NCBI GenBank assembly: GCA_947626075.1
Contig: CANQQW010000001.1
Location: forward strand, 14,213-78,212
Direction: 5' to 3'
Length of the DNA: 64,000 nt
Source of the DNA: an uncultured Clostridia bacterium
Lineage (GTDB): Bacteria > Bacillota > Clostridia > UBA1381
Numbering within the stretch: the first letter of the stretch is position 1; every line of letters begins with the position of its first letter. This document shows, piece after piece, positions 1 to 22,441 of the stretch. The notes beneath the pieces were generated by a model. It worked only from the letters and a program-made list of their open reading frames with translations, was not told the DNA's origin and ran no database searches. The position numbers and the translations under genes are program-made.

Positions 1-2
1 AT

Positions 3-3000
3 GTTCCTAATACAGACGAGAGCGACGGTGTTATAAGCTCAGACGCGCCTATCTCCTTTTTCAGCGCGAACGACTTTTTCGATATATCGCTTCTGAGCAC
101 AGGAGTAAACAGTATGATGATTGATAAAGACGGCGATGGCGAAGATGATAGTACTGTATTTTATGGCGATTGTACCGGCGATGGTTCCAGTTATGTAGAA
201 GGTGCACATTATCAAGATGGCGATAAAGTCGAATGGTGGCTTGACAGTGATGGTACATTAACATTTAAAGGTACTGGTTGTATTAAGGACTACGGTAAAC
301 AGAAAAATGCAAGACCGCCGTGGTATGGCGGGATACAGATACCTTATGACGTAAAAAATATTATTATAGGTGAAGGTATAAGATACATCGGAAGTGATGC
401 TTTTTCAGGTTTGGACAAAATAGAAACCGTGACCTATCCTGAAACAAGCTTAATTGATATAGGTTCCAGTGCATTTGAAAATAGCAGTATAAGAGAGTTT
501 AATATTCCCGATACCGTTAAATATATTCAAATGTATGCTTTTAGGGATTGTACAAAATTATTATATGAAGATTACGATGTGCCGGAAGAGAACAGAAAAA
601 CTTTGCATTTGCCAAATTCTTTGGTATCTTTAAGTTCTGGTGCTTTTCAAGGTTCATACTGTATACACAAAGTAGAGTTCCCGGAAGGTTTAACAAAGAT
701 ACCGGATAGTTGCTTTAAAGGTTGTAGCGCTTTAGGGAAACAGTATGATGAAGAAGCATATGTATTTCCTGATACAATAACAACTATAGGAAGTTCTGCG
801 TTCGCAAATACAGGTTTTAAGAATGTTATAATACCGGCAAATACCACTTTAGGAAATGCGATATTTATGGGAAGTGCCTTAAAAAAGGTCGAATTCGAAA
901 ATGGCGTAACAGAAGTGCCTAATTCTATGTTTAAAGAATGTGATGCCTTGGAAAATGTTAAAATGGTGGATAGTATAGAATCTATAGGCTCTGAAGCGTT
1001 TAGAGCTTGTACGAAGCTTCCCTATGTTGAAATACCACAGAACGTAACAGAAATAGGGAATGATGCTTTTTCTTATTGCTATAATCTTGAAGAGTTGAAC
1101 ATTCCGGCGAAAGTTGAATTAATAAAAGGAAATCCTGCCGTGTTCTCTTTTAGATTGAAGAATATCAATGTAGACCCTGAGAACGATTATTACGAGAGTA
1201 ATAATGGTGTATTGTTCACAAAAGGTTTAGAGGATTTAATATATTACCCTATATGGGGGAAAGAAGAAACAGAATATACTATTCCTAACGGTACAAAAAA
1301 TATTTTACAGAGTGCATTTGCAAAAAATACACTTACAGGCTCTGAAAAATATGAAACTCCGCCTGAAACACATCTTACTACTGTGCATTTTCCCGAAACG
1401 GTAAAAACGATAGGGAAAGAGGCGTTTTATGGCTTAGAAAGTTTAACCACTGTTACTTTAAATAATGGCTTGGAGAGTATAGGAGAAAAAGCATTTTCTT
1501 ATACAGGTCTGGAGAGTATAACGATACCGGAGACTGTAAATAAAATGCTTTCGGGAACATTTTTAAATTGTAAGTGTTTGACAACGGCAGAACTATCATC
1601 TAATCTAACAACAATATCGCAAGACACATTCAGCGGCTGCGTTCATTTAGGAGAGGTCATTGTTCCTGAAGGCATCACCTATATTGGTTCATATGCTTTT
1701 GCCAGTTGCGAAGAACTATCGTCAATTGCTTTACCAAGCACACTTGAGACTATAGATGTTTGCGGTTTTATGAACTGTAAAAATTTAAAAACTATAGAAT
1801 TGCCTAAAAGCTTGAAGGAAATATCTGTTAAAGGTTTACCGTTTGGGACTTTGGAAACAATTACGGTTAATGAAGAAAATACCACATATCGCGTAGACAA
1901 TGACGTTGCTCTTATAAATAACGATACAAAGACGTTGGTCGGATATTTGACACAAAATAAACAAACTATATATACTGTACCTGAAGATGTTGAGGTAATA
2001 GGAAAATATGCATTTTACAATGCTTCATATTTACAATCCATAAACCTCAGTAATATTACAGCTATCGAACGAAGTGCTTTTGAGGGGGCGTCCAAAATAC
2101 ATTTTACATTACCTGAAGGACTTAAATCAATCGGTGCATGGGCATTTTACAATATTGGAGTGGTGTCGAACTTAAAAATACCGGCATCTGTTATATCTAT
2201 AGGGCAAAAGGCGTTCGCTCAATCAAGTTCCGGAAAAGGCGTATCAGGAGTTTTAACCTTTGAGTCACAAGAAGAACCTAACGATAGCAGAAAACTTGTA
2301 TTTGAAATAAACCAGTTTTCCGGCACAGATGAATCAATAAGTAAGGCTTTCGATAAAAGCAGCCTCAGATCTATTGATTTTGGGAATAGAATAATTGTAT
2401 TCAATGGCTATGAATTTTCAAATAGTCCTCTTCTGATGTCCGTCGATATGTCCAAAGCAAGTGTAGCAACAATCGCAGTCAGTACATTTGACGGTTGTCC
2501 TTACTTGAACGATGTTCAGTTTTCGCCGTCTATTCAGAATATTTGTAATCGAGCATTCGCCGGTTCCACACAACTTGCTCAGATAACTATACCATGGAGC
2601 ATTCGGGGTATCTCTACAAATGCTTTTCTGGGTACAAGATTGCAGAAAATCGTGATACGTAGATTTAAACTTCCGTATATTGTAGAGAATGGTGATTCAA
2701 ATACAGAAGGAGCGGAAGTTATTTATGCGAACGCATATTATCCCCAAACGGCATATAATTATACAGGCGCAATGCCTAAGCCGACAGTAACTCTCGACGG
2801 TGAAAGCTTAATTGAAAACGTGGACTATACCATTGAATACGGTGAGTTGGACGAAGAAAATCAAATGGAAGCAACCATCCGAGGCGTACCGGGGCGTGTG
2901 GGAGGCTATGCGGTCGCTACGTTTAAATTGATACCTGACAGCATAACAAGAGCTACTTATGATCCGCTGCCCGATGTGACGTATACGGGCGATCCGTTCA

Positions 3001-6000
3001 AGCCAAAACCGGTACTGACGTATAAGTTTTTTGAGAACGGTCCCGGTCAGCTTGTCGAAGGTGAGGACTATACTCTTTCATGGGAGTCGAACGTGAACGC
3101 GGGTACGGGAAAGGTAATTGTTCGCGGCATAAACCGGTTTTCAGGTGAGATGTCAATACCGTTCACTATCAATAAGCGCAGTATAACCGAAGCGAGAATT
3201 ACACAGATACCCGCACAAGACTATACGGGAAATCCCATTACGCCTAACCCGACCTTGACGTATAACGGACATAAGCTGTTACAGTCCGCTGATTATACGC
3301 TAAGCTATTCGGATAATACTACGGATATAGGTACGGTAACCATTACCATAACAGGTATCGGTAACTTCGAGGGCACAGTTAATACAACGTTTGAGATTGA
3401 ACCGTCAGGAATTGAAGGGGTAGCCGTACATCATATACCCGACCAAGAATATAACGGCAAGCCGCAAGAACCTGATTTGACAATCACGTACAAAGGACGA
3501 ACGCTCGAGGAAGATACCGACTATACGTTAGACTACTCGAATAACGTAGATGTGGGTACTGCCACTGTTACCATTACAGGCGTGGAAAACTCGGGCTTTA
3601 CAGGTACAACAGAAGCCAATTTTAATATTATCGCGTGTCCAATATCCCGTGCGGCGATAGAAACACCCGATAATGTGACGTATACAGGTTCTGAGATCAC
3701 ACCCGGTCTGACTATTACATACAACGGCATGACGCTTGAACAGAATGTGGACTACACATTGGGCTACAGCGAGAACGTAAATGCGGGTATGGCAGAGATT
3801 ATTGTGACCGGTATAGGTAACTATTCAGGTACACGCAGCACTAACTTCGGTATAGATCCGTGTGAGATTTCCAAAGCTGATATTTCGGAAATAGACGAGC
3901 AGATGTATACGGGTGAGGTAATCACACCCAAGCCGACGCTCTCGTTCAACGGTAAGACACTGGTACAGGGCGTAGACTATACGCTGTACTATTCCGAAAA
4001 CAGGGATATTGGTACGGCTACTATTACAATAACAGGTAACGGCAACTTTACCGGTGTGACAACTACCACGTTCCAAATCATAGCATCCGATATTAAGGAT
4101 GTCATAGTGCTTAACATACCCGACCAGCTATATACCGGTAAGCAGATAACGCCTGATCCGACAATTATGTTTAACGGGCGACTGCTGGCTAAAGACTACG
4201 ACTATACACTAAGTTATGAAAATAACGTGGACGTAGGCACGGCTACGGTAACGATAACAAGTGTAGAGGAATCGGACTTTGTGGGTACGGCTACCAAGAC
4301 GTTTGAAATTGTTCCAAGACCTATCGCTGACGCGGCTATTACTCTGCCGAAGCATGAGACATATACGGGCGATCCGATAACACCACACCTAACAATTGAG
4401 TTTGAGGGTATGAGCCTTGTAGTAGGCAAGGACTACAATATATCATATGATAGTAACACCAATGTCGGAATGGCAGAAATAGTAATTGAGGGTATCAATA
4501 ATTTTGAAGGTTCACGGCATACGGTGTTTACAATTGTACCCCGCAACATCTTTGAAGCGGACATCACGGAAATACCGCCGCAGCACTATACGGGCGATGC
4601 TCTGACACCTGAACCGACTATCTCGTATCGCGGTAAGCCACTTACAAAGAACGTCGATTATGTATTGATGTACGCGAACAACGTAAGGGAAGGTACGGCT
4701 ACGGTAACGGTAAGGGGTGTTGGTAACTTTACAGACATAGCAACAACGACATTCAAAATCGAGTCGTCAGGTGTTGACGGCGTAGTAGTTTTAGGTATAC
4801 CCGACCAAGTATATACGGGTAAGCCCATAACTCCTGAACCGACTATCTCGTATCGCGGTAAAACACTCACGAAGGACGAAGATTACACCTTGGACTATGA
4901 GAATAACATCAATGTAGGACGTGCAACGGTTAAAATCACGGGCATAGCAGGTTCGGGATTTGACGGAACGACAACTGTTTCGTTCAATATAACGCACAAA
5001 CCGATTGCTGACGCGGCAATTAAGCTGCCTGAGCACCATGTCTATACCGGTGAACCGATACAACCGGAAATGGAAGTCACGTTAGAGGATTTGACGCTTG
5101 TCAAGGACAAAGACTATACGGTAGACTATGATGATAATACGCGTGTTGGTACAGCCGAAGTGGTTATAACGGGCGTAGGCAACTTTGCCGGCACAAGACA
5201 TACGGTATTTGCTATCATGCCTTGCGATATAGAGGATACGGATATAGACGATATACCCGCACAGGACTATACAGGCTATCATATAACGCCTGATCCGCAT
5301 ATATCATATAACGGTCAGGATTTGATATTCGGACGCGATTATACGTTAAAGTATGAAGATAACCTTGAGGTAGGTACTGCTACCGTTACTATCGCCGGAA
5401 ACGGTAATTTTACGGGCACAGTGGACAAGACGTTTGAAATATCGGAAATGGATATTGATTATGTCGATATTGCGCCTATACCGTCACAAACATATACCGG
5501 TTATGAGATAACGCCCGAGATGTCAATCACGTTCCACGGCAGAACGCTTGTTAAGGGCTTGGACTATACGGTTGAGTTTGAGAATAACAAGGACGTAGGT
5601 ACGGCTACGGTAATAATTACAGGTATTCCCGAAGCGGGCGTTAAAGGAACAAAGGAAACAGAGTTTGACATAACTCCCGCACAAATAAGCTCTGCTAAGG
5701 TATCATCGGTACCGAAGCATGAAACATACACGGGCGATCCGTATACACCTGAACCGACGCTTGTGTTCAACGGTATAGAGCTTGTTAAAGATGTCGATTA
5801 CACGTTGGACTACTCGAATAACGTAGACGCGGGTGAGGTTGTAATCACCATTACCGGTATGGGTAATTTTGAGGGTACAATGACCGAAACGTTTGTTATA
5901 GAAGCTGTGCTTATAACCAACGTTGAAGTAACCGCTATCCCGGCAGAAACATATTCGGGTGAGGAAATAACCCCTGAACCGACAGTGACGTATGAAGGTA

Positions 6001-8165
6001 ATGAGCTTACAATGGGCGAAGATTATGTGCTGGAATACGATAATAACCTTAACGCGGGTACAGCTATGGTAATCATACGCGGTATAGGTAACTATACGGG
6101 CACAACCAACAGGGTATTCACGATCAATTCGCAGCTTATAAGCAACACGGATATGTCCATTGAGGACGTAGAATTTACAGGCTATCCTCAGGACGGACAT
6201 CTTGCACTGACATACGGTGACAATACACTTGTTAAAGACAAGGACTATACGGCATCGTTTATCAATAATATCAATGTAGGTACTGCTACCGCAATCATTA
6301 CCGGTGTAGGCAATTTTGCGGGTAATCTTACGTCCGGATTTGATATATTACAACGACTTATTACGTTGAAAAACATCAAAGCTGAACCTATACCCACACA
6401 GGCATATACCGGCTATGAAGTAACACCTAAACCTGTCATATGGTACGGTGATTTCCTGCTTGAGGAAGATAAGGACTATACGCTTGAATACCGTAATAAC
6501 GTTAATGTAGGCACAGCGAGTGTAGATGTGACGTTTATGGGTAACTATACGGGCAAAATAACCTTGGATTTTGAGATACAAAAGTATCGCGTAACGGCAT
6601 CGAATAATGGCGGCTACATTGACGGGGCAAAGACAGAGTATGTAGACGACAACAATATCAATGTTACGCTTCCTGACGGTGTGGTATTCGACTACGACGA
6701 CAGAGTACATGTGACCGTAACAGATATGGACGGCAACCCTGTAGAGGGCGTTACGGTCCATGTAACAGACAGTAACGGTACGGTAGAGCAAGACACTACA
6801 GATGAGCAAGGTGACGCTTCTGTGCCGCCGCAAAAGACCGATACGACCGATAAAAACGGTCAAGGTGAAATTATAATAACAGACGACGACGGCAACGTTA
6901 CGGGCAGGTATACGGTCACTGTGAGCGATGAGAGTGGTCCTGTAAAAGACGCATTTTTGTCATTAACAAACGACGGCAATTTAAGTGTTACAATGCCTGA
7001 CGGCAAGGTCGTAGGCGCGTCTAACAGAGTAACGGTCAGTGTTAAAGACGAGAATGGCGAGGGTGTAGCTGATTTGACAGTAACAGTATCGGATACAGCT
7101 GAAACACCGTCAACGTTCAGTGGTAAGACATCGAACACCGGTTCTGTGACCTTACCGCCTAAATCGTCAGTTTCAAGCGGCGGCGGTGGCGGTGGTTCAT
7201 CAGGTGGTGGCGGCGGTGGTGGTTCGTCAAGTGGCGTACTAACCCCGTCTGCAACAGTAACCGATGATACCAACCAAGAGTTGACCGTTGAAGAAGAGAA
7301 GTCAAAAACCGGCGATTATACCATTACTCTGCCGGAGTCTGAAAACCTTGAAGACGGCAAAGAATATACCGTTACATTGCCGGGCAAGAAAGAGGGCGTA
7401 AAGGTTACTCTAAAGGATAAGTTCGGTAATGAAGTATCAGGTATTACCGATAAAGGTGGAAAGGTTGTTCTTAAGTATAAGAAGACGGCAATAGAACCGA
7501 CAGAGCCGACAGACACGGTAGAGCACAGCGCATACATTTACGGCGATGATTACGGCTTATTCAGACCTGATAATATGATGACACGAGCTGAAGCGGCTAC
7601 TATATTTGCACAAAATATATCGCAGCGTCTTGACGAGGATATTTCCGATAACAATTCACAGTTTGCTGATGTTTTGCCGGGTACATGGTATAATAAATAT
7701 ATCGCATATCTCGAAGGTTATGACATCATAACAGGCTATGAAGACGGTTTATTCTATCCTGAAACACCTATTACGCGTACCGAGTTTGTAACCATGTGCA
7801 AGAAGTATTACGAGCTTTATGATACCGTTGAGGAATTTAACGAGAATATATTCCCCGACGTCCCCGATACACATTGGGGTGTTGCATACATAAAAGACTC
7901 CGTTGGTATGGGCTGGATAAGCGGTTATGAAGACGGCACGTTTAAGCCTGATAACTTTATCACGCGTTCAGAGGTAGTGGCTATCATTAATAGAGTACTC
8001 GGACGTTCCACTGACAGGGAGTATATAAACAGCAACATTGAAGCAGTGGCACAGTTCACTGATGTACCGACTACACATTGGGCATACTACGACATACTCG
8101 AAGCTTGTAATTCACATACCTGCTCCAATGAGTCAACCGGTGAGGTTTGGGTAAAGGTTCAATAA
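3..8165 (+). CDS. Giant surface protein (5'-partial): BspA-type LRR region, 17 Ig-like repeats, further beta-sandwich repeats, Gly/Ser linker, three C-terminal SLH domains
   Basis: Frame is open from base 3 (VPNTDES...) to the ATG at 114, so the true start is upstream. LRR_5-like IGxxAFxxCxxL repeats, YTG..ITP..DYT..Y.NN..VGTATVTITG.GNF repeats, and SLH motifs (FRPDNMMTRAEAA, FYPETPITRTEF, FKPDNFITRSEV). Confidence 0.9.
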   Translation, partial: VPNTDESDGVISSDAPISFFSANDFFDISLLSTGVNSMMIDKDGDGEDDSTVFYGDCTGDGSSYVEGAHYQDGDKVEWWLDSDGTLTFKGTGCIKDYGKQKNARPPWYGGIQIPYDVKNIIIGEGIRYIGSDAFSGLDKIETVTYPETSLIDIGSSAFENSSIREFNIPDTVKYIQMYAFRDCTKLLYEDYDVPEENRKTLHLPNSLVSLSSGAFQGSYCIHKVEFPEGLTKIPDSCFKGCSALGKQYDEEAYVFPDTITTIGSSAFANTGFKNVIIPANTTLGNAIFMGSALKKVEFENGVTEVPNSMFKECDALENVKMVDSIESIGSEAFRACTKLPYVEIPQNVTEIGNDAFSYCYNLEELNIPAKVELIKGNPAVFSFRLKNINVDPENDYYESNNGVLFTKGLEDLIYYPIWGKEETEYTIPNGTKNILQSAFAKNTLTGSEKYETPPETHLTTVHFPETVKTIGKEAFYGLESLTTVTLNNGLESIGEKAFSYTGLESITIPETVNKMLSGTFLNCKCLTTAELSSNLTTISQDTFSGCVHLGEVIVPEGITYIGSYAFASCEELSSIALPSTLETIDVCGFMNCKNLKTIELPKSLKEISVKGLPFGTLETITVNEENTTYRVDNDVALINNDTKTLVGYLTQNKQTIYTVPEDVEVIGKYAFYNASYLQSINLSNITAIERSAFEGASKIHFTLPEGLKSIGAWAFYNIGVVSNLKIPASVISIGQKAFAQSSSGKGVSGVLTFESQEEPNDSRKLVFEINQFSGTDESISKAFDKSSLRSIDFGNRIIVFNGYEFSNSPLLMSVDMSKASVATIAVSTFDGCPYLNDVQFSPSIQNICNRAFAGSTQLAQITIPWSIRGISTNAFLGTRLQKIVIRRFKLPYIVENGDSNTEGAEVIYANAYYPQTAYNYTGAMPKPTVTLDGESLIENVDYTIEYGELDEENQMEATIRGVPGRVGGYAVATFKLIPDSITRATYDPLPDVTYTGDPFKPKPVLTYKFFENGPGQLVEGEDYTLSWESNVNAGTGKVIVRGINRFSGEMSIPFTINKRSITEARITQIPAQDYTGNPITPNPTLTYNGHKLLQSADYTLSYSDNTTDIGTVTITITGIGNFEGTVNTTFEIEPSGIEGVAVHHIPDQEYNGKPQEPDLTITYKGRTLEEDTDYTLDYSNNVDVGTATVTITGVENSGFTGTTEANFNIIACPISRAAIETPDNVTYTGSEITPGLTITYNGMTLEQNVDYTLGYSENVNAGMAEIIVTGIGNYSGTRSTNFGIDPCEISKADISEIDEQMYTGEVITPKPTLSFNGKTLVQGVDYTLYYSENRDIGTATITITGNGNFTGVTTTTFQIIASDIKDVIVLNIPDQLYTGKQITPDPTIMFNGRLLAKDYDYTLSYENNVDVGTATVTITSVEESDFVGTATKTFEIVPRPIADAAITLPKHETYTGDPITPHLTIEFEGMSLVVGKDYNISYDSNTNVGMAEIVIEGINNFEGSRHTVFTIVPRNIFEADITEIPPQHYTGDALTPEPTISYRGKPLTKNVDYVLMYANNVREGTATVTVRGVGNFTDIATTTFKIESSGVDGVVVLGIPDQVYTGKPITPEPTISYRGKTLTKDEDYTLDYENNINVGRATVKITGIAGSGFDGTTTVSFNITHKPIADAAIKLPEHHVYTGEPIQPEMEVTLEDLTLVKDKDYTVDYDDNTRVGTAEVVITGVGNFAGTRHTVFAIMPCDIEDTDIDDIPAQDYTGYHITPDPHISYNGQDLIFGRDYTLKYEDNLEVGTATVTIAGNGNFTGTVDKTFEISEMDIDYVDIAPIPSQTYTGYEITPEMSITFHGRTLVKGLDYTVEFENNKDVGTATVIITGIPEAGVKGTKETEFDITPAQISSAKVSSVPKHETYTGDPYTPEPTLVFNGIELVKDVDYTLDYSNNVDAGEVVITITGMGNFEGTMTETFVIEAVLITNVEVTAIPAETYSGEEITPEPTVTYEGNELTMGEDYVLEYDNNLNAGTAMVIIRGIGNYTGTTNRVFTINSQLISNTDMSIEDVEFTGYPQDGHLALTYGDNTLVKDKDYTASFINNINVGTATAIITGVGNFAGNLTSGFDILQRLITLKNIKAEPIPTQAYTGYEVTPKPVIWYGDFLLEEDKDYTLEYRNNVNVGTASVDVTFMGNYTGKITLDFEIQKYRVTASNNGGYIDGAKTEYVDDNNINVTLPDGVVFDYDDRVHVTVTDMDGNPVEGVTVHVTDSNGTVEQDTTDEQGDASVPPQKTDTTDKNGQGEIIITDDDGNVTGRYTVTVSDESGPVKDAFLSLTNDGNLSVTMPDGKVVGASNRVTVSVKDENGEGVADLTVTVSDTAETPSTFSGKTSNTGSVTLPPKSSVSSGGGGGGSSGGGGGGGSSSGVLTPSATVTDDTNQELTVEEEKSKTGDYTITLPESENLEDGKEYTVTLPGKKEGVKVTLKDKFGNEVSGITDKGGKVVLKYKKTAIEPTEPTDTVEHSAYIYGDDYGLFRPDNMMTRAEAATIFAQNISQRLDEDISDNNSQFADVLPGTWYNKYIAYLEGYDIITGYEDGLFYPETPITRTEFVTMCKKYYELYDTVEEFNENIFPDVPDTHWGVAYIKDSVGMGWISGYEDGTFKPDNFITRSEVVAIINRVLGRSTDREYINSNIEAVAQFTDVPTTHWAYYDILEACNSHTCSNESTGEVWVKVQ
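2750..6590 (+). repeat. 17 tandem ~80-aa Ig-like coding repeats
   Basis: Counted 17 Y[TNS]G/FTG-initiated units in the translation; boundaries approximate. Confidence 0.85.
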
Positions 8166-8238: not shown

Positions 8239-8267
8239 TTGACATGAAATTTCCACTATGATATAAT
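8239..8267 (+). promoter_or_regulatory. Consensus sigma-A promoter with extended -10
   Basis: TTGACA (8239-8244), 17 bp, TG-n-TATAAT (8262-8267). Confidence 0.85.
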
Positions 8268-8273
8268 ACAGAT

Positions 8274-8502: not shown

Positions 8503-8586
8503 CTCAAGATGCTTATGTAATCATGTGTTCTCAAGGAGTTGTGTGCATATTTCCTTCTTGTTCCCGTAAAGAAAGGAATAAAGATT

Positions 8587-11546: not shown

Positions 11547-11588
11547 AAAATAAATTGTATACAAGGCGTAAATAAAGGAGTGATTATA

Positions 11589-16206: not shown

Positions 16207-16244
16207 TTTCATCCCACCGTTTTCAATATGGCGGTGGGATGAAA
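16207..16244. terminator. Terminator-like hairpin after virB4
   Basis: 13-bp stem TTTCATCCCACCG / CGGTGGGATGAAA; the A run after it would make it a better terminator on the minus strand. Confidence 0.65.
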
Positions 16245-16257
16245 AAACACTTTACAG

Positions 16258-16360
16258 AACGTTTATTAAACGTGTTAAAAGCGTGTTAAAAACGTTTGTT
16301 GGTAGTCAAAACGTTTATTAAAGCGTATATAAAGCGTTTATTAAACGTTTTATATACGTT
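16258..16360. repeat. Array of nine degenerate 11-bp-phased repeats (consensus ~AAACGTTTATT)
   Basis: CGT cores at 16260, 16271, 16282, 16293, 16312, 16324, 16335, 16346 and 16357. Confidence 0.8.
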
Positions 16361-16378: not shown

Positions 16379-16936
16379 ATGATTTCAACGATTTTAGTAA
16401 ATAACATTCTTGAGTTCGTGAACCGTATTGGGGTGGTAGAGGAAAATCAGCTCTTCACTATGTTCGGTATGACGCACGACATAGATACCATTGACTGGTG
16501 TTTACGACATCTTAGCCGAACCAATCAAATCAATATGGACAGGGAACGAGGAATAATTACACGTCGGCAATGGGTGAACGAGTCTGATTTCGGGCAGAAG
16601 CTAATGACGACGGCAACATGGGTTTTAGCTCACATGGGTGAAACGCGCGTACGGGACTTTTTTCCCGTTTCTTATCCGTCCCAACTACTGATTATAGGTG
16701 AGGACAACAACGTCTATGATGTGACGGTGTATACATGGCAAACACTCGACGCAATAAATATGTCGATTATCCCGAAGCGTAATCAGATCGTCCCGCCGGG
16801 TGAGGTTGATATGACTATACATATCGCGCTGCTTCCCGATGAGGAAATGGCAAGTAAGGTAAAGGCGTTCGGGTTCGATAATTACTGTATTCTCGACGAG
16901 AATGGTAAGCCTAAATACTACGAGTGGGAGGACTAA
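16379..16936 (+). CDS. Hypothetical protein, possible N-terminal winged helix
   Basis: RBS AGAAAGGA; ILEFVNRIGVVEENQL...CLRHLSRTNQI looks wHTH-like. Family not established. Confidence 0.65.
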   Translation: MISTILVNNILEFVNRIGVVEENQLFTMFGMTHDIDTIDWCLRHLSRTNQINMDRERGIITRRQWVNESDFGQKLMTTATWVLAHMGETRVRDFFPVSYPSQLLIIGEDNNVYDVTVYTWQTLDAINMSIIPKRNQIVPPGEVDMTIHIALLPDEEMASKVKAFGFDNYCILDENGKPKYYEWED

Positions 16937-16939: not shown

Positions 16940-17668
16940 ATGACAAAGGATTTTGTGCAGAATATGGCTGATGTGGATATAATCGACATGGTTAATACCT
17001 ATAAGGCAACCGGCAAGACAGCTGAACAGCTACAGAACGAAATAAACAAGTCATTGCCCACGCTTGAATCATTTGCGAGCACATACAGATTTATGCTGCC
17101 AAAGGAACGGCATAAGACCGCCAAAGATATACAGAAGCTTATAACTCGCGATTATATACGGTTTCTGCTGCTGTATCAGCAGTTATATAACGATTACAGC
17201 AACATATTCTACGCTGTGTACGATGCACATTTGAAGAATACGGTAACAGTTGAGTGCGACAGTTCGTTCATATCGGCATTTGCCACAGATGATATGCTCG
17301 CAGTGAAACTACCACATCTGCCGGTCAAAGCTCGTATTCGCTCCTCGGTGTTCCAAGACCTGCTACGTGATAAGCTTTCGGTCGTCAATGTGCCGCTTAT
17401 CCGTGACAAGCTGATACACATCGTACATATATATCCCACAGCGATGAGTGAGCTTAGAGTCCCCGACAATGACAATTATGACATAAAACGATTGATTGAT
17501 GTCATATCCGACTATATGGGCTATGGGGATAGCGGAGTACACTGTTCGCTGTTCATGGAGACGCTTCTGACAGACGATGTACCCGAAGGTAGCTATGTTA
17601 TAGTTACACCTAAGAGTAGTGGAGTAAAATCCGATTCCGAAACCTTAGAAATTCTTCAAAATTTCTGA
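16940..17668 (+). CDS. RusA-like nuclease/resolvase candidate
   Basis: C-terminal PDNDNYDIKRLIDVI...GD resembles the RusA DxDNxxKxxxD...DD catalytic motif. Confidence 0.5.
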   Translation: MTKDFVQNMADVDIIDMVNTYKATGKTAEQLQNEINKSLPTLESFASTYRFMLPKERHKTAKDIQKLITRDYIRFLLLYQQLYNDYSNIFYAVYDAHLKNTVTVECDSSFISAFATDDMLAVKLPHLPVKARIRSSVFQDLLRDKLSVVNVPLIRDKLIHIVHIYPTAMSELRVPDNDNYDIKRLIDVISDYMGYGDSGVHCSLFMETLLTDDVPEGSYVIVTPKSSGVKSDSETLEILQNF

Positions 17669-17856: not shown

Positions 17857-19062
17857 ATGTCTAAATCACACATAAAGTACAACATTTTAATGTGTCTTAT
17901 GGACAACGGTATAGCACTTTCTCAAACCATAAAAGCGGTATTGGGTGGCACTTCACAGGTCGGTAATTACATATCCATATTAACACGTCAAGGGTATATA
18001 AAACGTAAAGACTTACCTGTACGGTCAAACAACCGTAAATATACCATTCAATACATATCAATCACACGTCAAGGGGTTCAGTGGCTTGTAGATAACTATC
18101 CAAACGATAGCTACATTCCATTCTTACCAAATCCTGTGCCGAGATTTCGCATAACGGACATAACCAATAACGATACAATACAGAAATATCTTAAAAGCAT
18201 ATCAGCGTCATTGATATTCAAGTCAATCGGCATAGAAACGGCAGACCAAGACAATAAAAAGGCAACAGACACACTGTACTTTATAGACATGATAGAAAAG
18301 GCGAAAAGACAGTACAGTATAGCCCAAGATAAGCCCATAAACAGTACCCAAATAGCAAATGCACTCAACACAGTGACAAGATATTATCATTCAAGAACTA
18401 TACACGACAACTTCACGCTCAATCAAGACGAGGTAGCACAGTACAAATTCTCAACACACATCGGTCTATTGCTTAACTGTTCAATACCTTATATCATCTA
18501 CGCGTCAAATCCGAACGGGACAGTATTCCAAGCAAAAGCAGTAGAGAGAGCACAGTTATCAGTCAGTACCATGCTGCGTATGCAAGGTATAGGCGTAAGC
18601 AACGAACTAAGCAACGGTATAGTATTTTGCAAGAACGGCAGAGAGTTTGGGAAAGTATTTAATAGTCTTAAAGACCGTATGGGGCAAGACCAAGAACAGT
18701 TTATGGATAGACGATTAGCGCGGATATTTAAGCACCTGTACGCTGTACCTATCCAGTCCGCAAACCTACCAATACTTAAAGAGATACTTACCTACGAGGA
18801 TAACTATCGTGTAAAGATACGGGACAAACTACTTAGCATTGACAGTTCATTTCAGAGCACATTCTCACCTATTACGGAGCTTGACTATGACGGTACACCT
18901 GCGTATATAGGTACTGACATGGACTTGTGCCGTATCCAGTATTTGTATCGCAACCTAAGCTATCAAAAATCTGTTAATGTGGTTATCATCTGCTACCCGC
19001 ACCAACGGGACTATTACGAGCGTGTCATGCCGAAGGACAGAGTGAGTTATTACCTCATATAA
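17857..19062 (+). CDS. Winged-helix protein, replication-relaxation (Rep/relaxase) candidate
   Basis: N-terminal ILMCL...YISILTRQGYIKR...YISITRQGVQWL pattern typical of wHTH/Replic_Relax-like proteins. ATG 17857 after AAAGGA; no canonical MOB HUH motif seen. Confidence 0.45.
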   Translation: MSKSHIKYNILMCLMDNGIALSQTIKAVLGGTSQVGNYISILTRQGYIKRKDLPVRSNNRKYTIQYISITRQGVQWLVDNYPNDSYIPFLPNPVPRFRITDITNNDTIQKYLKSISASLIFKSIGIETADQDNKKATDTLYFIDMIEKAKRQYSIAQDKPINSTQIANALNTVTRYYHSRTIHDNFTLNQDEVAQYKFSTHIGLLLNCSIPYIIYASNPNGTVFQAKAVERAQLSVSTMLRMQGIGVSNELSNGIVFCKNGREFGKVFNSLKDRMGQDQEQFMDRRLARIFKHLYAVPIQSANLPILKEILTYEDNYRVKIRDKLLSIDSSFQSTFSPITELDYDGTPAYIGTDMDLCRIQYLYRNLSYQKSVNVVIICYPHQRDYYERVMPKDRVSYYLI

Positions 19063-19235: not shown

Positions 19236-19466
19236 ATGATGAGTAAAGTAGAGATAGGTAATCGGTTTGGTTGTTTAGAGGTAAAGAAAGACTTAGGTGC
19301 GGATAAGCATCGGCATCATAAGTATAGGTGTGTATGCTTAAGTTGTGGCAGAGAGCAGGACGTAGACGTTCGTATGCTGAGAGGGCAAGTACACGAGTGT
19401 AAGTGTTGCAAGAGCAAATCGGGCGATGTGAAACTCCCGAAAGCTTTTGTTGAGCAGATGATATAA
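19236..19466 (+). CDS. Small Cys-rich (zinc-ribbon) phage-like protein
   Basis: IGNRFGCLEV...YRCVCLSCG...HECKCC, similar to the Cys-rich N-terminal module of phage HNH/AP2-associated proteins. Confidence 0.6.
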   Translation: MMSKVEIGNRFGCLEVKKDLGADKHRHHKYRCVCLSCGREQDVDVRMLRGQVHECKCCKSKSGDVKLPKAFVEQMI

Positions 19467-19483: not shown

Positions 19484-20482
19484 ATGATGATAAGAGTAGA
19501 AAGGGCAATATTGCACATATGCGAGATGAACGCGGGGACAATGATATGGTCTGATAAGGAACTGGACATAACCGACACGAACATATACCTATACATCACA
19601 GCGCAGGTAACGAAGGTGATAAACAGTTCCAATAAGAAACGAGCCGAGTTCATGAGCAACAGCGGCTGCAAGGTCGCACTGACAGATTACAAGAAGGACG
19701 AGATTGGATTTATAGCGTTGTCCTGTCAAATAGCGAAGCGGATATATGACGGCATGGCAGGGTACGAGAAAGCGGGCGGTATGGACGTGGTTATAGCCGA
19801 GGTAGAGATACAGGGCGGTAAGTACATAGTCGTTCTGAACCTTGACCGCAAGACGGGGTATGTGCATAACGTAATAGATAACGGCAATACCATATCAATC
19901 AATACGGCGTTACTGCCGAATAATCAGACCGTGAAAGAGTTTGCCATTATAAACGAGGACGACTTTGGCATAGAGTATGCGAGCAAGACATACCCGATAG
20001 ACGGCGAGCGAGTAGATGTCATGTCGGAACTGGTTCTCGAATGTGAGAATGTGAGCGTATCGAGCAAACAAGCCGATACGAGCATAAAGAAACTGATACG
20101 CAAGGTATCTACGGACGCGCTCAGAAGTAACGTCAAGCTGAAAGACACCATGCAGAACATAATAACGGCGCAATCGGGGAGTAAGGATAAGACGTATAGC
20201 CTTGACACAATATCCGCGAATATCTTTGAGAGCTACGGCGAGAAGAAAGAGTTTGTGGACATGGCAATAGGCACAGGACTTGTTACGGACGGTGACGATA
20301 AGCTCCCCATTGACGACTATACGGTTAAAAAGGCGAACGAGAAAGTCAAGGTAACGACGGATAACGGGTTTGAGATAAAATTCCCGCACGGTCTGTATGC
20401 GGACTGTTTTGAAATGGAGCGCGACAGTGACGGAGCGATACGGATCGTGCTAAAGGGTATAAGCTCACTGGACGTGAAGTAG
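19484..20482 (+). CDS. NdpA/YejK-like nucleoid-associated protein
   Basis: 332 aa; N-terminal IRVERAILHI...SDKELD and overall pattern typical of the 37-kDa NAP family. Confidence 0.65.
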   Translation: MMIRVERAILHICEMNAGTMIWSDKELDITDTNIYLYITAQVTKVINSSNKKRAEFMSNSGCKVALTDYKKDEIGFIALSCQIAKRIYDGMAGYEKAGGMDVVIAEVEIQGGKYIVVLNLDRKTGYVHNVIDNGNTISINTALLPNNQTVKEFAIINEDDFGIEYASKTYPIDGERVDVMSELVLECENVSVSSKQADTSIKKLIRKVSTDALRSNVKLKDTMQNIITAQSGSKDKTYSLDTISANIFESYGEKKEFVDMAIGTGLVTDGDDKLPIDDYTVKKANEKVKVTTDNGFEIKFPHGLYADCFEMERDSDGAIRIVLKGISSLDVK

Positions 20483-20504: not shown

Positions 20505-20810
20505 ATGACTACGACACAAAAGCGTATATACTCGTCGTCCACGTTCAACCTTGACAATACATCTGTGATAGAGTCGATGGGTAGTTATGAGCGATTAGCG
20601 TATGCGATAATAATTCAGGCGGTAAAGGACTACCGTCGTGCGAAACGTACAGAGAATTTGGGCGTATTAAAGGAATGTGAGCGTTTTTTCGGTGGGAGCT
20701 GGTTTGAAGTCTTAACGGACATACCCGGCAAGCTCATAATCGAGAAATTACGTCAAGAGAACGTATCAAGGCGAAAGCGCAGGAAGAAAGCGGGTGTGCA
20801 AGGTGGATAA
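20505..20810 (+). CDS. Conserved phage/ICE hypothetical protein
   Basis: YERLAYAIIIQAVKDYRRA...ECERFFGGSWFEVLTD pattern common in clostridial mobile elements. Confidence 0.65.
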   Translation: MTTTQKRIYSSSTFNLDNTSVIESMGSYERLAYAIIIQAVKDYRRAKRTENLGVLKECERFFGGSWFEVLTDIPGKLIIEKLRQENVSRRKRRKKAGVQGG

Positions 20811-20982
20811 CGAGTATATGACACGCCAAGAAACAGCGGAATATTTAAAGATCAGCATACGCAGCGTGGACAGGCTAATACACAACAAGCATTTTGACGG
20901 TATACAGTACATTGGCAGAAATGTACGGGTGCATAAGCCCACGCTGGACAGATACCTTGAACAACGACGAGGAAGTAAGTAA
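20794..20982 (+). CDS. xis: Excisionase-like HTH protein
   Basis: YMTRQETAEYLKISIRSVDRLI...IGRNVRV (MerR/HTH_17 type) directly upstream of the integrase; the start may be 20803 or 20818. Confidence 0.75.
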   Translation: MCKVDNEYMTRQETAEYLKISIRSVDRLIHNKHFDGIQYIGRNVRVHKPTLDRYLEQRRGSK

Positions 20983-21014
20983 GGTTATATAACAAAAGGC
21001 AAGACCTGACGTTA

Positions 21015-21043
21015 TTGACAGAAGGAGTAGTATATGATAAGAT
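21015..21043 (+). promoter_or_regulatory. Sigma-A promoter for the integrase
   Basis: TTGACA, 17 bp, TG-n-TAAGAT. Confidence 0.65.
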
Positions 21044-21106
21044 ATAAGATAACAAAAAAATCAATAATAGGCGGGTTTTGCTTTTTAATCAGAAGGAGGA
21101 ATTAAA

Positions 21107-22285
21107 ATGGCAAAACGAGCCAACGGTGAAGGAACGATACGCAAACGAGTATCGGGGAAGAAAGGTAACATTAGGTGGGAAGGGAGGTATTACGATCCAT
21201 ACCTAAAGAAGCAAAAGAGTGTGTATGGGGACACTAAAGAGGAAGTCCGAAAGATGTTGTCACAGATTGCCGTAAAGAAAGACACGGGCAATTTTGTATC
21301 GCAAAACAACATAACGCTCGACGAATGGCGAGAAACGTACTTAAGCCTATACGTTGAAGGAGTATTAAAACCGCAAACGATCAGTGCAAAACAGAAAATG
21401 TATACGCTGCACATACAGCCAATGATTGGCAGTAAATGTGTACAGAACATAACAGATATGGATGTAAAAACACTGTTAAACCGGCTACAGGCGTTGCATT
21501 ATGCTACCAGTACCATATCCAACATACGCAACGAGCTATCTACCATGTTAAAAAGGGCAGTAGAGCATAAGCTCATAAGCAGCAATCCGGTAAGCAATAT
21601 CAAAGCGGTCAACGGTACAGACAGCAAAGAACGACGAGAACTGACAGACTATGAGCTAAAATGGTTTTTTCGAGGTTTAGAGGAGAGAAGACCACAAGAC
21701 CTGCTATTTTTCCTGATAATGGCAACCACAGGCGCAAGATGCGGTGAAGTTATAGGGTTACAGTGGTGCAACTTTTCAGACGACTATTCGAGTATGAGCA
21801 TAAACAAAACATATACTCAATACCAAACCGAGCAAGGAGTTATACGAGGGTTTAGCAAACCAAAGACGAAAACATCCGTTCGTACCATACCTATCATACC
21901 GAAAGTCAGTGAAGAATTACGGAAAAAATATGAGGAAAACAAAGAGATTATGTCTTCATTGAATCAAACAATATCCGATAATGACTTTATTTTTATGGAT
22001 TTTAGACGTGATAGGGTTAATAATCACAGTTATTATCGCAACGTCATAAAAGGTGTTTTAGATTATCTAAAGAGGTGTTACAACATAGAAATAGAGATGT
22101 TTTCAACACACTATTTTAGACATACGTTCACAAGCCGAGCATTGCGTAGTAATGTATCACTGGAAACATTAAAGCGATTGTTGGGACACAAGAGCTATAA
22201 TATGATCGAACAGGTTTATGCCCATGTATCTCAAAGCGACAAAGTTAATGCGGTAATGGCTATGTTCAGCGAAGCCAACAATTAG
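21107..22285 (+). CDS. int: Tyrosine integrase (Tn916-like N-terminal arm-binding domain)
   Basis: MAKRANGEGTIRKR..WEGRY N-terminus; catalytic TGARCGE, PKTKTS, HYFRH, LGH and VYAH. Confidence 0.95.
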   Translation: MAKRANGEGTIRKRVSGKKGNIRWEGRYYDPYLKKQKSVYGDTKEEVRKMLSQIAVKKDTGNFVSQNNITLDEWRETYLSLYVEGVLKPQTISAKQKMYTLHIQPMIGSKCVQNITDMDVKTLLNRLQALHYATSTISNIRNELSTMLKRAVEHKLISSNPVSNIKAVNGTDSKERRELTDYELKWFFRGLEERRPQDLLFFLIMATTGARCGEVIGLQWCNFSDDYSSMSINKTYTQYQTEQGVIRGFSKPKTKTSVRTIPIIPKVSEELRKKYEENKEIMSSLNQTISDNDFIFMDFRRDRVNNHSYYRNVIKGVLDYLKRCYNIEIEMFSTHYFRHTFTSRALRSNVSLETLKRLLGHKSYNMIEQVYAHVSQSDKVNAVMAMFSEANN

Positions 22286-22339
22286 GGTAAAAGTAGGGTA
22301 GATTTGAGAAAATTAAGTGAATAAGGTACAGTCAAATCT
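22283..22339. repeat. Putative integrase arm-type sites near attR
   Basis: TAGGGTA twice, 11 bp apart (22283, 22294); AGATTTGA/TCAAATCT inverted pair (22300-22307, 22332-22339). Confidence 0.5.
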
Positions 22340-22441
22340 CAAATAATGCCGTACAAACCACGGTTTTATGCGTATATCCAAGTCATTACAACGAAGAGGG
22401 AACGAATTTATTAATAAATTATGAAAATTTGTATTAACTTC

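What the first reader, a model, noticed from the sequence alone, without database searches (positions are those of the whole stretch)
1..22420. Integrative element with an atypical gene set: sigma factor, CpaB-like, S1-like, PrgI-VirB4, wHTH, RusA-like, Rep/relaxase candidate, NdpA, Xis, Int
Seen: one co-directional block bounded by int and the hrcA promoter. Known: PrgI+VirB4 and Xis+Tyr-integrase mark Gram-positive ICEs. Inference: in this part a canonical MOB relaxase, VirD4, VirB6 and wall hydrolase are absent, and transcription, RNA-binding and junction-processing genes sit around the T4SS core. This could be a poorly described ICE family.
Basis: partly seen in the sequence, partly recalled or inferred. 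Interest (0 to 1): 0.7.

Follow-up and report, generated by a model that had tools for sequence, protein, structure and literature searches.

The report
Integrative element with coupling-protein-less VirB4 module
A mobile island in a rabbit-gut Clostridia genome carries a conserved, selected 11-gene cluster built around a conjugation ATPase (VirB4) that lacks the coupling protein, relaxase, channel protein and wall hydrolase every described conjugative element has, so how it transfers is open.

Summary
The right end of the element is real. A rabbit-gut MAG shares window 2656-22373 at about 90-92% nucleotide identity, and the similarity stops 88 bp after the integrase stop codon. There that MAG has radical-SAM/asnS/gatBA genes instead of hrcA.

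The left end is not in the window. The 8-kb LRR/SLH surface-protein gene is open at base 1 and travels with the element.

The core is sigma-like, CpaB/RcpC-like, a 2-TM protein, an S1/OB protein, PrgI(VirB3), VirB4, DUF5697, DUF6100, a wHTH 400-aa protein, a Zn-ribbon protein and NdpA. It is syntenic in six lineages (VirB4 61-95% identical). dN/dS is 0.03-0.27 for all 14 genes. The integration modules differ between lineages (Tyr integrase+Xis, or a large Ser recombinase).

No member shows VirD4, a VirB6-like polytopic protein, a wall hydrolase, a pilin or a Pfam-detectable relaxase within up to 10 kb on either side. More distant relatives (VirB4 47-58%) do carry pilin, hydrolase and VirD4 around the same PrgI-VirB4-DUF5697-DUF6100-wHTH-S1 set.

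This is a distinct, undescribed, VirD4-less branch of a Clostridial T4SS clade on integrative elements. Calling it a self-transmissible ICE is unproven.

The parts
1..8165 (+). Giant surface protein gene, cut at its 5' end by the window edge. It has 7 LRR_5/BspA stretches, about 75-aa tandem Ig-like repeats and C-terminal SLH cell-wall anchors. Probable adhesin cargo of the element.
   Evidence: Pfam LRR_5 6e-127 and SLH 8e-27. Tandem repeats. No in-frame stop in 3-113. Positions 2656-8165 are 92% nt identical to L003, but the N-terminal LRR part (114-2656, GC 36-38%) is only 50% aa identical. SLH giants also lie upstream of the sigma gene in L011 and L023.
8239..8500 (+). Perfect sigma-70-type promoter (TTGACA-17-TATAAT with extended TG). 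It is followed by a roughly 230-nt leader that ends in an 18-bp-stem terminator (8454-8493), just upstream of the sigma-like gene.
   Evidence: A similar promoter/leader/terminator lies upstream of the 1853-aa SLH gene in L003. No Rfam match.
8584..9105 (+). Sigma-70-like regulator (regions 2 and 4).
   Evidence: Orthologues at the same position in L004, L011, L007, L014, L023, L025/27.
9299..10756 (+). Bitopic membrane protein. It has a conserved cytoplasmic beta domain, 1 TM segment (169-187) and an ectodomain like CpaB/RcpC (SAF plus beta domains).
   Evidence: AF2 pLDDT 71.5 overall, above 85 in the ectodomain. Foldseek hit to 9gzr RcpC at E 1e-6. 15 homologue clusters only. TM prediction.
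10753..11187 (+). Small 2-TM protein; its start overlaps the end of the previous gene.
11580..12764 (+). S1/OB-fold protein with an acidic N-terminal tail. Candidate single-strand nucleic-acid binder of the transfer module.
   Evidence: PF00575 above cut-off. Matches rpsA models over residues 175-326. 31% identical to the S1 protein next to VirD4 in Vescimonas pMM35_02.
12799..13671 (+). PrgI/VirB3-like membrane protein with a long acidic tail.
13678..16203 (+). VirB4-family T4SS ATPase.
16210..16360 (+). VirB4 terminator hairpin, then an array of about 8 copies of A(A/T)AA(A/G)CGTNT on an 11-bp period, ending at the DUF5697 ribosome-binding site. Candidate operator or oriT.
   Evidence: (D12, I22). 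It is the only such cluster in each of six loci and always sits in this spacer. The canonical relative L001 has a different 11-bp-period repeat at the same place.
16379..16936 (+). DUF5697 protein (probable N-terminal wHTH).
   Evidence: PF18954 2e-18. Alignment.
16940..17668 (+). DUF6100 protein. The C-terminal domain has an invariant D-x-D-N-x3-K-x3-D-x9-D motif. Candidate RusA-like metal-dependent nuclease.
   Evidence: PF19595. Invariant residues. 271 representative clusters. hhalign aligns it to the RusA catalytic block at E 0.003 but only 10% probability.
17857..19062 (+). wHTH protein of about 401 aa with a new C-terminal alpha/beta part. Positional orthologue of the roughly 360-aa protein found in VirD4-bearing clusters.
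19236..19466 (+). Cys-rich Zn-ribbon protein (133-139 aa in relatives).
19484..20482 (+). NdpA/YejK-type nucleoid-associated protein.
   Evidence: PF04245 2e-19. Also present in L014, L023, L027.
20505..20810 (+). Small conserved protein of unknown function (PHROG 7024).
20818..20982 (+). HTH_17 excisionase.
   Evidence: The orthologue L004 12997-13194 carries PF12728. Alignment.
21107..22285 (+). Tyrosine integrase.
   Evidence: PF00589, PF14659, PF22022.
22286..22373 (+). Right arm and end of the element. Similarity to the copy in the other MAG stops at about 22373.
   Evidence: An X1 contig spans the int-hrcA junction.

Best explanation
Window 1 to about 22373 is the right-hand 22 kb or more of an integrated mobile element of an uncultured rabbit-gut Clostridia bacterium.

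Shown:
- The element inserts and excises with a tyrosine integrase plus an HTH_17 excisionase at its right end. It occupies different chromosomal sites in different genomes.
- It carries an 11-gene module that is conserved and under purifying selection.
- That module descends from the PrgI-VirB4-DUF5697-DUF6100-wHTH-VirD4-S1 type IV secretion clusters of Oscillospiraceae plasmids.
- In this branch, a sigma-like regulator, a CpaB/RcpC-like bitopic envelope protein and a 2-TM protein sit where relatives have the pilin, polytopic membrane protein, wall hydrolase and VirD4 coupling protein.

Inferred:
- The module still serves cell-to-cell transfer of the excised element.
- The SLH-anchored giant LRR protein provides cell contact.
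- VirB3/VirB4 with the CpaB-like and 2-TM proteins form the envelope apparatus.
- DUF5697, the wHTH-400 protein, the RusA-like DUF6100, the S1/OB protein and NdpA bind and process the DNA. The 11-bp-period repeat array between virB4 and DUF5697 is their likely binding site (operator or oriT).
- The coupling and relaxase functions are either carried out by these uncharacterised proteins or encoded outside the DNA seen (further left in the element, or on a co-resident element). I cannot tell which.
For: Mobility:
- Window 7837-22381 aligns with L004 at 90%, and window 2656-11235 with L003 at 92%.
- Identity ends at about 22373, and the flanks differ: hrcA here, radical SAM/rhaM/asnS/gatBA there.
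- Relatives end with Tyr Int+Xis next to other genes (L023). One ends next to what reads as the 3' end of a tRNA gene by eye, not run through a tRNA finder (L006). One ends with a large Ser recombinase (L027).

Conservation and selection:
- Identical gene order in six lineages.
- dN/dS 0.03-0.27 for all 14 genes, with dS ranging from 0.07 to 0.64 along the element.

Descent from a T4SS:
- VirB4 matches full-length VirB4 models.
- It is 47% identical to the PrgI-VirB4 fusions of Vescimonas pMM35_02 and a Subdoligranulum plasmid. Their neighbours are DUF5697, DUF6100, a ~360-aa protein, VirD4 and S1.
- Intermediates L036 and L026 (VirB4 54-58%) have pilin, M23 peptidase, VirD4, S1, PrgI, VirB4, DUF5697, DUF6100 and a 417-like protein.
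- The 417-aa and ~360-aa families are homologous.

DNA-handling set:
- wHTH.
- Invariant nuclease-like motif in DUF6100.
- S1 and NdpA.
- Conserved repeat array.

Envelope set: RcpC-like fold and TM predictions.
Against: - No T4CP (VirD4 or TcpA/FtsK type), no Pfam/NCBIfam-detectable relaxase, no VirB6-like polytopic protein and no peptidoglycan hydrolase. This holds in the window and in any of the six lineages within up to 10 kb each side.
- According to PMC12102498, all conjugative T4SSs have a T4CP. The few T4SSs without one secrete proteins.
- No att direct repeat was found, and the left end is unseen.
- No excised circle or empty site could be shown. Only assembled contigs were available.
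- No experimental datum exists for any member.
- The RusA link is below significance.
Confidence: 0.45

Rival explanations
1. Exapted T4SS. The VirB3/VirB4 + CpaB-like + 2-TM module no longer moves the element. It has another role, such as export or display of a protein, assembly of a surface structure together with the SLH adhesins, or DNA uptake or release. It rides as cargo on an integrative island that spreads by other means.
For: - T4CP and relaxase are absent in six lineages.
- T4SSs without a T4CP are protein secretors. Relaxase-less monoderm-type T4SSs of Patescibacteria are thought to be co-opted for other functions (PMC12102498).
- Giant SLH surface proteins are linked to the module in four lineages.
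- A CpaB/RcpC-like protein is otherwise a pilus-assembly component.
Against: - The genes kept from the ancestral cluster are mostly the predicted nucleic-acid-binding ones: two wHTH proteins, a nuclease-like DUF6100 and S1/OB, with NdpA added.
- These stay in strict synteny with a conserved repeat array. That is hard to explain for a protein exporter.
- The module is always found with an integration module and at varied sites.
Confidence: 0.25
2. Ordinary ICE seen incompletely. A standard relaxase, T4CP, VirB6 and hydrolase module lies in the unseen left part of the element, beyond the surface-protein genes.
For: - The left end is outside the window, and the LRR gene is open at base 1.
- T4CP genes can lie far from virB4, next to the relaxase (PMC12102498).
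- A look-up result suggests the window's contig is about 82.8 kb, so more sequence exists.
Against: - In relatives, 5-15 kb upstream of the sigma gene is visible and holds none of these genes.
- L003 has two SLH giants and a divergent gene.
- L011 has a multi-HTH protein, a 496-aa protein, an SLH giant and a putative metallopeptidase.
- L007 has MmeI, two XRE repressors, HTH proteins and an MBL-fold protein.
- L027 has an 804-aa protein of unknown function.
- VirD4-bearing relatives keep VirD4 within 5 kb of VirB4.
Confidence: 0.2
3. Decaying remnant of an ICE that has lost VirD4, hydrolase and channel genes and is no longer functional.
For: Key conjugation genes are missing.
Against: - All 14 genes are intact, with dN/dS 0.03-0.27.
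- The same reduced gene set occurs in six lineages down to 61% VirB4 identity, with different recombinases.
- The element is at different sites in two closely related copies.
Confidence: 0.04
4. Prophage or phage satellite. The closest GenBank 'phage' records are labelled Bacteriophage sp.
For: VirB4 hits at 46-48% identity to MT836123 and similar records from human faecal virome assemblies.
Against: - Those records carry a pilin, a C39 peptidase, PrgI-VirB4, DUF5697, DUF6100 and VirD4, and no identified capsid, portal or terminase.
- PHROGs finds only sigma, NdpA-like and small-protein matches in the window genes.
- No relative was found in IMG/VR.
Confidence: 0.02

Closest known systems
PrgI-VirB4 / DUF5697 / DUF6100 / ~360-aa / VirD4 / S1 clusters of Oscillospiraceae plasmids. 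Examples: Vescimonas fastidiosa pMM35_02 (NZ_AP023417.1), Subdoligranulum variabile plasmid OY725878.1, and GenBank 'Bacteriophage sp.' contigs such as MT836123. These are annotated but not described in any paper I could find.
   Same: PrgI and VirB4 (47% aa), DUF5697, DUF6100, the wHTH ~360/417-aa family and the S1 protein are homologous. They keep the order VirB4-DUF5697-DUF6100-wHTH. A repeat array sits in the VirB4-DUF5697 spacer. No Pfam relaxase is found, and PLSDB types both plasmids as non-mobilizable.
   Different: Those clusters have a VirB2-like pilin, a 5-6-TM protein, a C39_2 (or M23) peptidase and VirD4, and PrgI is fused to VirB4. The window's branch lacks all four, has PrgI as a separate gene, and adds sigma-like, CpaB-like, 2-TM, Zn-ribbon and NdpA genes plus an integration module.
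Gram-positive ICEs of the Tn916 / ICEBs1 / ICESt3 type (MPF-FA/FATA). Comparison from my own knowledge of these families.
   Same: Integrase and excisionase at one end, a co-directional transfer operon, a VirB3-like plus VirB4 pair, and a sigma-like or HTH regulator.
   Different: Those elements have a MOBT (Rep_trans) or MOBP relaxase, an FtsK/TcpA- or VirD4-type coupling protein, a VirB6-like polytopic protein, a VirB8-like protein and a CHAP/NlpC-P60 or lytic transglycosylase hydrolase. None of these was found here.
T4SSs without T4CP or relaxase: Bordetella Ptl, Brucella VirB and the Patescibacteria monoderm-type T4SS (PMC12102498).
   Same: A VirB4-centred apparatus that lacks the DNA-coupling components.
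   Different: Those are chromosomal and non-mobile, and their neighbours are not DNA-binding proteins. Here the module sits on an integrative element together with predicted nucleic-acid-binding proteins.
Tad/Flp pilus alignment protein RcpC/CpaB (PDB 9gzr).
   Same: The fold of the 485-aa protein's ectodomain (SAF plus beta domains) and an N-terminal membrane anchor.
   Different: No CpaF/TadA ATPase, TadB/C, Flp pilin or prepilin peptidase in the locus. The protein also has an extra conserved cytoplasmic domain.

Membership tests
ICE (self-transmissible integrative conjugative element, as scored by CONJscan/ICEscreen-type rules) | VirB4-family ATPase | tested here: met
   Full-length VirB4 matches. 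47% identical to the PrgI-VirB4 of plasmid T4SS clusters.
ICE (self-transmissible integrative conjugative element, as scored by CONJscan/ICEscreen-type rules) | Type IV coupling protein (VirD4 or TcpA/FtsK type) | tested here: not met
   No T4SS-DNA_transf, TraG-D_C, TrwB or FtsK hit in any element gene. tblastn of three VirD4s against the 64-kb window found nothing. Also absent in five other lineages. The unseen left part is not excluded.
ICE (self-transmissible integrative conjugative element, as scored by CONJscan/ICEscreen-type rules) | Relaxase (any MOB class) | tested here: not met
   No relaxase or Rep_trans family in Pfam or NCBIfam. The model of the 417-aa candidate matches no solved relaxase fold. 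MOBscan/CONJscan profiles themselves were not available.
ICE (self-transmissible integrative conjugative element, as scored by CONJscan/ICEscreen-type rules) | Integrase (with excisionase) and defined ends | tested here: inconclusive
   Tyr integrase and HTH_17 Xis are present. The right end is set at about 22373 by comparison. The left end and att repeats were not found.
ICE (self-transmissible integrative conjugative element, as scored by CONJscan/ICEscreen-type rules) | Excision and transfer observed | not testable with these tools
   Only Logan contigs of rabbit-gut metagenomes hold it. No raw reads were available to look for circle junctions.
Monoderm T4SS (MPF-FA/FATA) | VirB3-like PrgI next to VirB4 | tested here: met
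   PF12666 26.0 bits against a cut-off of 27. 39% identical to the PrgI part of a PrgI-VirB4 fusion. 2-3 TM segments.
Monoderm T4SS (MPF-FA/FATA) | VirB6-like polytopic protein, VirB8-like protein, peptidoglycan hydrolase | tested here: not met
   No element protein has more than 3 predicted TM segments. No hydrolase domain. Relatives do have a 5-6-TM protein and C39_2 or M23 peptidases. VirB8-like folds were not specifically searched.
Monoderm T4SS (MPF-FA/FATA) | VirB4 nests in the FATA/FA clade | not tested
   No tree was built. The best NCBIfam models are the Mycoplasma-ICE and CD1110 VirB4 families, both below cut-off.
Oscillospiraceae PrgI-VirB4/DUF5697/DUF6100/wHTH/VirD4/S1 cluster | Synteny of PrgI, VirB4, DUF5697, DUF6100 and the wHTH ~360-aa protein, with S1 | tested here: met
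Oscillospiraceae PrgI-VirB4/DUF5697/DUF6100/wHTH/VirD4/S1 cluster | VirD4, pilin, polytopic protein, peptidase | tested here: not met
Tad/Flp pilus system | CpaB/RcpC-like protein | tested here: met
   Foldseek hit to 9gzr at E 1e-6, probability 1.0.
Tad/Flp pilus system | CpaF/TadA ATPase, TadB/C platform, Flp pilin | tested here: not met
   None among the element genes.
RusA Holliday-junction resolvase (for DUF6100) | Catalytic Asp/Asp/Lys/Asp block | tested here: inconclusive
   Invariant D176, D178, N179, K183, D187 and D197 align to the RusA block. However, hhalign gives E 0.003 and 10% probability. The Pfam RusA model does not hit.
Integrative mobilizable element (IME) | Own relaxase/oriT without a mating-pair apparatus | tested here: not met
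   The situation is the reverse: a VirB4 apparatus is present and no relaxase is found.

The most novel reading that the evidence does not exclude
The module is a self-sufficient DNA-transfer machine of a new type. It would move the excised element between monoderm cells without a VirD4/FtsK-type coupling protein or an HUH/Rep_trans/Tyr-type relaxase. VirB3/VirB4 with a CpaB-like envelope scaffold would form the apparatus. A RusA-like nuclease (DUF6100) with wHTH and OB-fold partners would act on the 11-bp-period repeat array as the DNA-processing system. The same unrecognised processing proteins would then also be the missing relaxosome of the abundant VirD4-bearing Oscillospiraceae T4SS clusters.
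Probability: 0.2. Interest if true: 0.85.

Novelty: new variant of a known kind. Interest (0 to 1): 0.62.

Why it matters
Automatic detection of conjugative elements requires a relaxase, a coupling protein and VirB4. Elements like this one are therefore invisible to such rules or are scored as debris.

This case shows a reduced gene set that is conserved, selected and mobile across several gut Clostridia lineages. Its larger sister clade, which still has VirD4, is very common in gut Oscillospiraceae. Its ~360-aa protein alone forms more than 400 clusters, some with thousands of members. That clade also has no recognisable relaxase.

Finding the DNA-processing enzyme of this clade would fill a gap in mobility predictions for a major group of gut bacteria. 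The candidates here are DUF6100, DUF5697 and the wHTH-400 family. It would also test whether a T4SS can move DNA without a coupling protein.

Tried and rejected
- **Extending the contig to the left.** Exact look-ups of four window proteins found nothing on record. The one genome-contig scan returned a related MAG and not the source genome.
- **att repeats.** Searches within the window and against L003 found nothing of 12 nt or more.
- **Empty site.** X4 and X5 contigs leave the window sequence at 22404, which is 30 bp right of the element end. Their loose-end sequence is not in the window. This is strain variation upstream of hrcA and not a clean attB.
- **One read-laying run was lost** to a sequence filter.
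- **Collection scans.** IMG/VR scans with VirB4 and with the 485-aa profile found nothing. The first metagenome scan with the 485-aa profile also found nothing.
- **Rfam.** No family in 1-24000.
- **RusA link for DUF6100.** PDB profile search, Pfam at E up to 10, PHROGs and hhalign against 1 and 7 RusA sequences gave no significant result.
- **The 417-aa protein as Rep or relaxase.** The PDB sequence profile finds only wHTH proteins. Foldseek against PDB and BFVD finds nothing at E <= 0.001 beyond the wHTH.
- **Leader upstream of the sigma gene.** It does not align across distant lineages.
- **Literature.** No paper mentions DUF5697 or DUF6100. The 'Hodor' megaplasmid preprint (PMC12934698) describes a different system with VirD4 and a MOBH-like HD nuclease.
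- **Prophage and decaying-remnant readings** were rejected (see rivals).

Full report
**What is there**

The interval is one co-directional (+) gene block. Bases 1-8165 are a single gene for a giant surface protein. It has seven LRR_5/BspA stretches (E 6e-127), a long run of roughly 225-nt tandem repeats and C-terminal SLH anchors. Its reading frame has no stop between bases 3 and 113, so the gene begins left of the window. Coordinate 1 is only the window edge.

The remaining genes follow in this order:

| Coordinates | Gene | Evidence |
|---|---|---|
| 8584-9105 | sigma-like regulator | r2 and r4 below Pfam cut-offs; TIGR02937 4e-8; PHROG sigma factor 1e-7 |
| 9299-10756 | 485-aa bitopic protein | |
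| 10753-11187 | 144-aa 2-TM protein | |
| 11580-12764 | S1-domain protein | |
| 12799-13671 | PrgI/VirB3-like | |
| 13678-16203 | VirB4 | NF045975 8e-84, NF045971 2e-81 |
| 16379-16936 | DUF5697 | |
| 16940-17668 | DUF6100 | |
| 17857-19062 | protein of about 401 aa, no Pfam family | start taken from orthologues |
| 19236-19466 | Cys-rich 76-aa protein | |
| 19484-20482 | NdpA/NA37 | |
| 20505-20810 | 101-aa protein | |
| 20818-20982 | HTH_17 excisionase | |
| 21107-22285 | tyrosine integrase | |

hrcA, with its CIRCE operator, follows at 22478-23570.

**It is a mobile element, and its right end is exact**

A rabbit ('Lapin') Clostridia MAG, GCA_947585795.1, holds the same element on contig CANPXG010000010.1 (loci L003 and L004).

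- Window 2656-11235 aligns at 91.6%, and window 7837-22381 at 90%.
- Identity is nearly perfect for the 88 bp after the integrase stop codon. It collapses at window position about 22373.
- Beyond that point the MAG has a radical-SAM/SPASM gene, rhaM, asnS, gatB and gatA instead of hrcA-grpE-dnaK.
- A rabbit-gut metagenome contig (X1) spans the int-hrcA junction as in the window.
- More distant relatives end with a Tyr integrase+Xis beside other genes (L023). One ends beside what reads as the 3' end of a tRNA gene, judged by eye and not run through a tRNA finder (L006). One ends with a large serine recombinase (L027).

The surface-protein gene is shared with the MAG although the right flank is not. 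SLH giants also precede the sigma gene in L011 and L023. The adhesin gene therefore belongs to the element, and the element continues left of the window. No att repeat of 12 nt or more was found, so the left end remains unknown.

**The module is conserved and selected**

The order sigma-like, CpaB-like, 2-TM, S1, PrgI, VirB4, DUF5697, DUF6100, wHTH-400, Zn-ribbon, (NdpA) recurs in six lineages:

| Lineage | VirB4 identity to the window |
|---|---|
| window / L004 | 95% |
| L011 | 77% |
| L014 | 67% |
| L023 | 66% |
| L007-L010 | 66% |
| L025 / L027 | 61% |

Between the window and L004, all 14 genes have dN/dS of 0.03-0.27. dS varies from 0.07 to 0.64 along the element, which is a recombination mosaic. 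A decaying remnant is therefore excluded.

The family is rare. The 417-aa and 485-aa proteins have 6 and 15 homologue clusters among 5.8 billion sequences. There are none in IMG/VR.

**What is missing, and where the module comes from**

Neither the window nor any of these loci, with up to 10 kb visible on each side, shows any of the following:

- a VirD4 or FtsK-type coupling protein;
- a relaxase detectable with Pfam or NCBIfam;
- a polytopic VirB6-like protein;
- a wall hydrolase;
- a VirB2-like pilin.

The nearest annotated relatives have VirB4 47% identical. They are Vescimonas fastidiosa pMM35_02, a Subdoligranulum variabile plasmid, and GenBank 'Bacteriophage sp.' contigs from faecal viromes. 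They encode a VirB2-like pilin, a 5-6-TM protein, a roughly 370-aa protein, a C39_2 peptidase, a PrgI-VirB4 fusion, DUF5697, DUF6100, a roughly 360-aa protein, VirD4 and an S1 protein.

Intermediates with VirB4 54-58% identical (L036, L026) have pilin, M23 peptidase, VirD4, S1, PrgI, VirB4, DUF5697, DUF6100 and a 417-like protein.

The window's branch is thus a derivative of a VirD4-bearing clade. Sigma-like, CpaB-like and 2-TM genes now occupy the place of pilin, hydrolase and VirD4.

Notably, no Pfam relaxase was seen near the VirD4-bearing clusters either. PLSDB types both plasmids as non-mobilizable.

**The unknown proteins**

*The ~400-aa protein.* It is homologous to the ~360-aa protein of the VirD4-bearing clusters. 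hhalign gives E 7e-5 over almost the full length. A joint profile retrieves 423 clusters, some with thousands of members and none with a Pfam domain. Its AlphaFold model is confident (pLDDT 85.7, pTM 0.86). The model has an N-terminal winged helix and an alpha/beta remainder with no match at E <= 0.001 in PDB or BFVD. Nothing supports a Rep or relaxase fold. No Tyr or His is invariant across the two families; the invariant residues include S179, G203 and Y215.

*The 485-aa protein.* It has a conserved cytoplasmic beta domain, one TM segment, and an ectodomain that matches the Tad pilus protein RcpC/CpaB (9gzr, E 1e-6) and SAF domains. However, no other Tad component is present.

*DUF6100.* Its C-terminal domain has an invariant D-x-D-N-x3-K-x3-D-x9-D block. 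Profile-profile comparison places this block on the catalytic block of RusA, but only at E 0.003 and 10% probability. Pfam's RusA model does not hit. 'RusA-like nuclease' is a reasonable hypothesis and not yet a finding.

**A conserved cis element**

The virB4-DUF5697 spacer carries a terminator hairpin followed by about eight copies of A(A/T)AA(A/G)CGTNT on an 11-bp period (window 16250-16360). The same array is the only such cluster in each of the six loci. It always sits at this place, although the rest of the spacer is not conserved. The VirD4-bearing relative L001 has a different 11-bp-period repeat in the same spacer. A phased binding array that co-varies with the adjacent DNA-binding genes fits an operator or an origin of transfer.

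**Most likely mechanism**

*Shown:*
- The element integrates through a tyrosine recombinase with an excisionase and moves between sites.
- It carries a selected module derived from a T4SS.

*Inferred (confidence about 0.45):*
- The module still mediates transfer of the excised element.
- The SLH-anchored LRR adhesin provides contact.
- VirB3/VirB4 with the CpaB-like and 2-TM proteins form the envelope apparatus.
- The wHTH proteins, DUF6100, S1/OB protein and NdpA handle DNA at the repeat array.

Whether coupling and nicking are done by these proteins, by genes further left, or by a co-resident element cannot be decided here.

*Main rival (0.25):* the apparatus has been exapted for a non-conjugative role. 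This is proposed for relaxase-less T4SSs of Patescibacteria and is known for the T4CP-less Ptl and Brucella VirB systems (PMC12102498).

*Second rival (0.2):* an ordinary relaxase/T4CP module hides in the unseen left part. The 5-15 kb visible upstream of the sigma gene in L003, L007, L011 and L027 weakens this reading.

**Comparison and novelty**

The element works like a Gram-positive ICE in its integration module and its VirB3/VirB4 pair. It fails the membership test for a self-transmissible ICE on two defining features, T4CP and relaxase. It also fails the test for a monoderm T4SS on VirB6 and hydrolase. It is a member, minus four genes, of an Oscillospiraceae T4SS clade that is annotated in databases, but I found no paper describing it.

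I rate it a new variant of a known kind, with interest 0.62. It is not categorically new, because every step of its descent from a T4SS cluster is visible. A specialist would still not expect a T4CP-less, relaxase-less VirB4 module to be conserved and mobile across lineages.

Noticed in passing
window 16250-16360; same spacer in L004, L011, L007, L014, L023; L001 14455-14542: About 8 copies of A(A/T)AA(A/G)CGTNT on an 11-bp period between virB4 and DUF5697. It is the only such cluster in each locus. The VirD4-bearing relative has a different 11-bp-period repeat (ATACG[CG]A) at the same spot.
   Followed up: partly
window 114-2656 versus 2656-8165: The N-terminal LRR part of the giant surface protein (GC 36-38%) is only 50% aa identical to the copy in the related MAG, while the rest of the gene is about 95% identical. 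This looks like a swapped variable binding domain on a conserved stalk and anchor.
   Followed up: partly
window 8239-8500; L003 230-545: A perfect sigma-70 promoter, a roughly 230-nt leader and a strong terminator lie just before the sigma-like gene. A look-alike, with shared boxes TATGAAGTATTA and TTAGCAGAAC and a GAACGAAG hairpin, precedes the 1853-aa SLH gene in L003. No Rfam family matches. It does not align in more distant lineages. Possibly an attenuator.
   Followed up: partly
window 8584-22285 versus L004: Synonymous divergence is mosaic: about 0.5-0.64 for most of sigma to VirB4 (PrgI 0.33), 0.30 for DUF5697, 0.07-0.12 from DUF6100 to Xis, 0.45 for the integrase and 0.18 for the surface protein. 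This suggests recombination between element copies.
   Followed up: no
window 22374-22456: The site just right of the element end varies between strains. X1 has an 18-nt insert after 22404. X4 and X5 contigs leave the window sequence at 22404 and 22456 for unrelated sequence. X4 and X5 also lack coverage of 21549-22331 (the integrase 3' half).
   Followed up: partly
L006 2577-4849 and 6900-6947: One relative has a Phage_rep_O-like wHTH protein and a Toprim-DnaB primase-helicase where the window has NdpA. Its integrase abuts what looks like the 3' end of a tRNA gene.
   Followed up: no
proteins P0024-P0138: The ~360-aa wHTH family of the VirD4-bearing clusters has more than 400 clusters at 90% identity, some with 1000-7000 member sequences, and no Pfam domain. 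A confident model shows no known fold beyond the wHTH. It is a candidate for a new protein family entry.
   Followed up: partly
GenBank MT835683-MT839438: Several records labelled 'Bacteriophage sp.' from human faecal viromes encode a complete T4SS cluster (pilin, C39 peptidase, PrgI-VirB4, VirD4). In the one I annotated (MT836123), no virion gene was identified. They are probably plasmid or ICE fragments.
   Followed up: partly
proteins P0023, P0032, P0034, P0035: Some database proteins join part of the ~360-aa family to DUF6100, a YqaJ-like exonuclease or a membrane protein, or carry an internal duplication. They look like assembly chimeras or recombinants.
   Followed up: no
window 31000-37400: A minus-strand block with a GC dip to 0.34 at 33-35 kb, next to tRNA-Ser(GGA) at 37654-37744. 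It was not examined.
   Followed up: no
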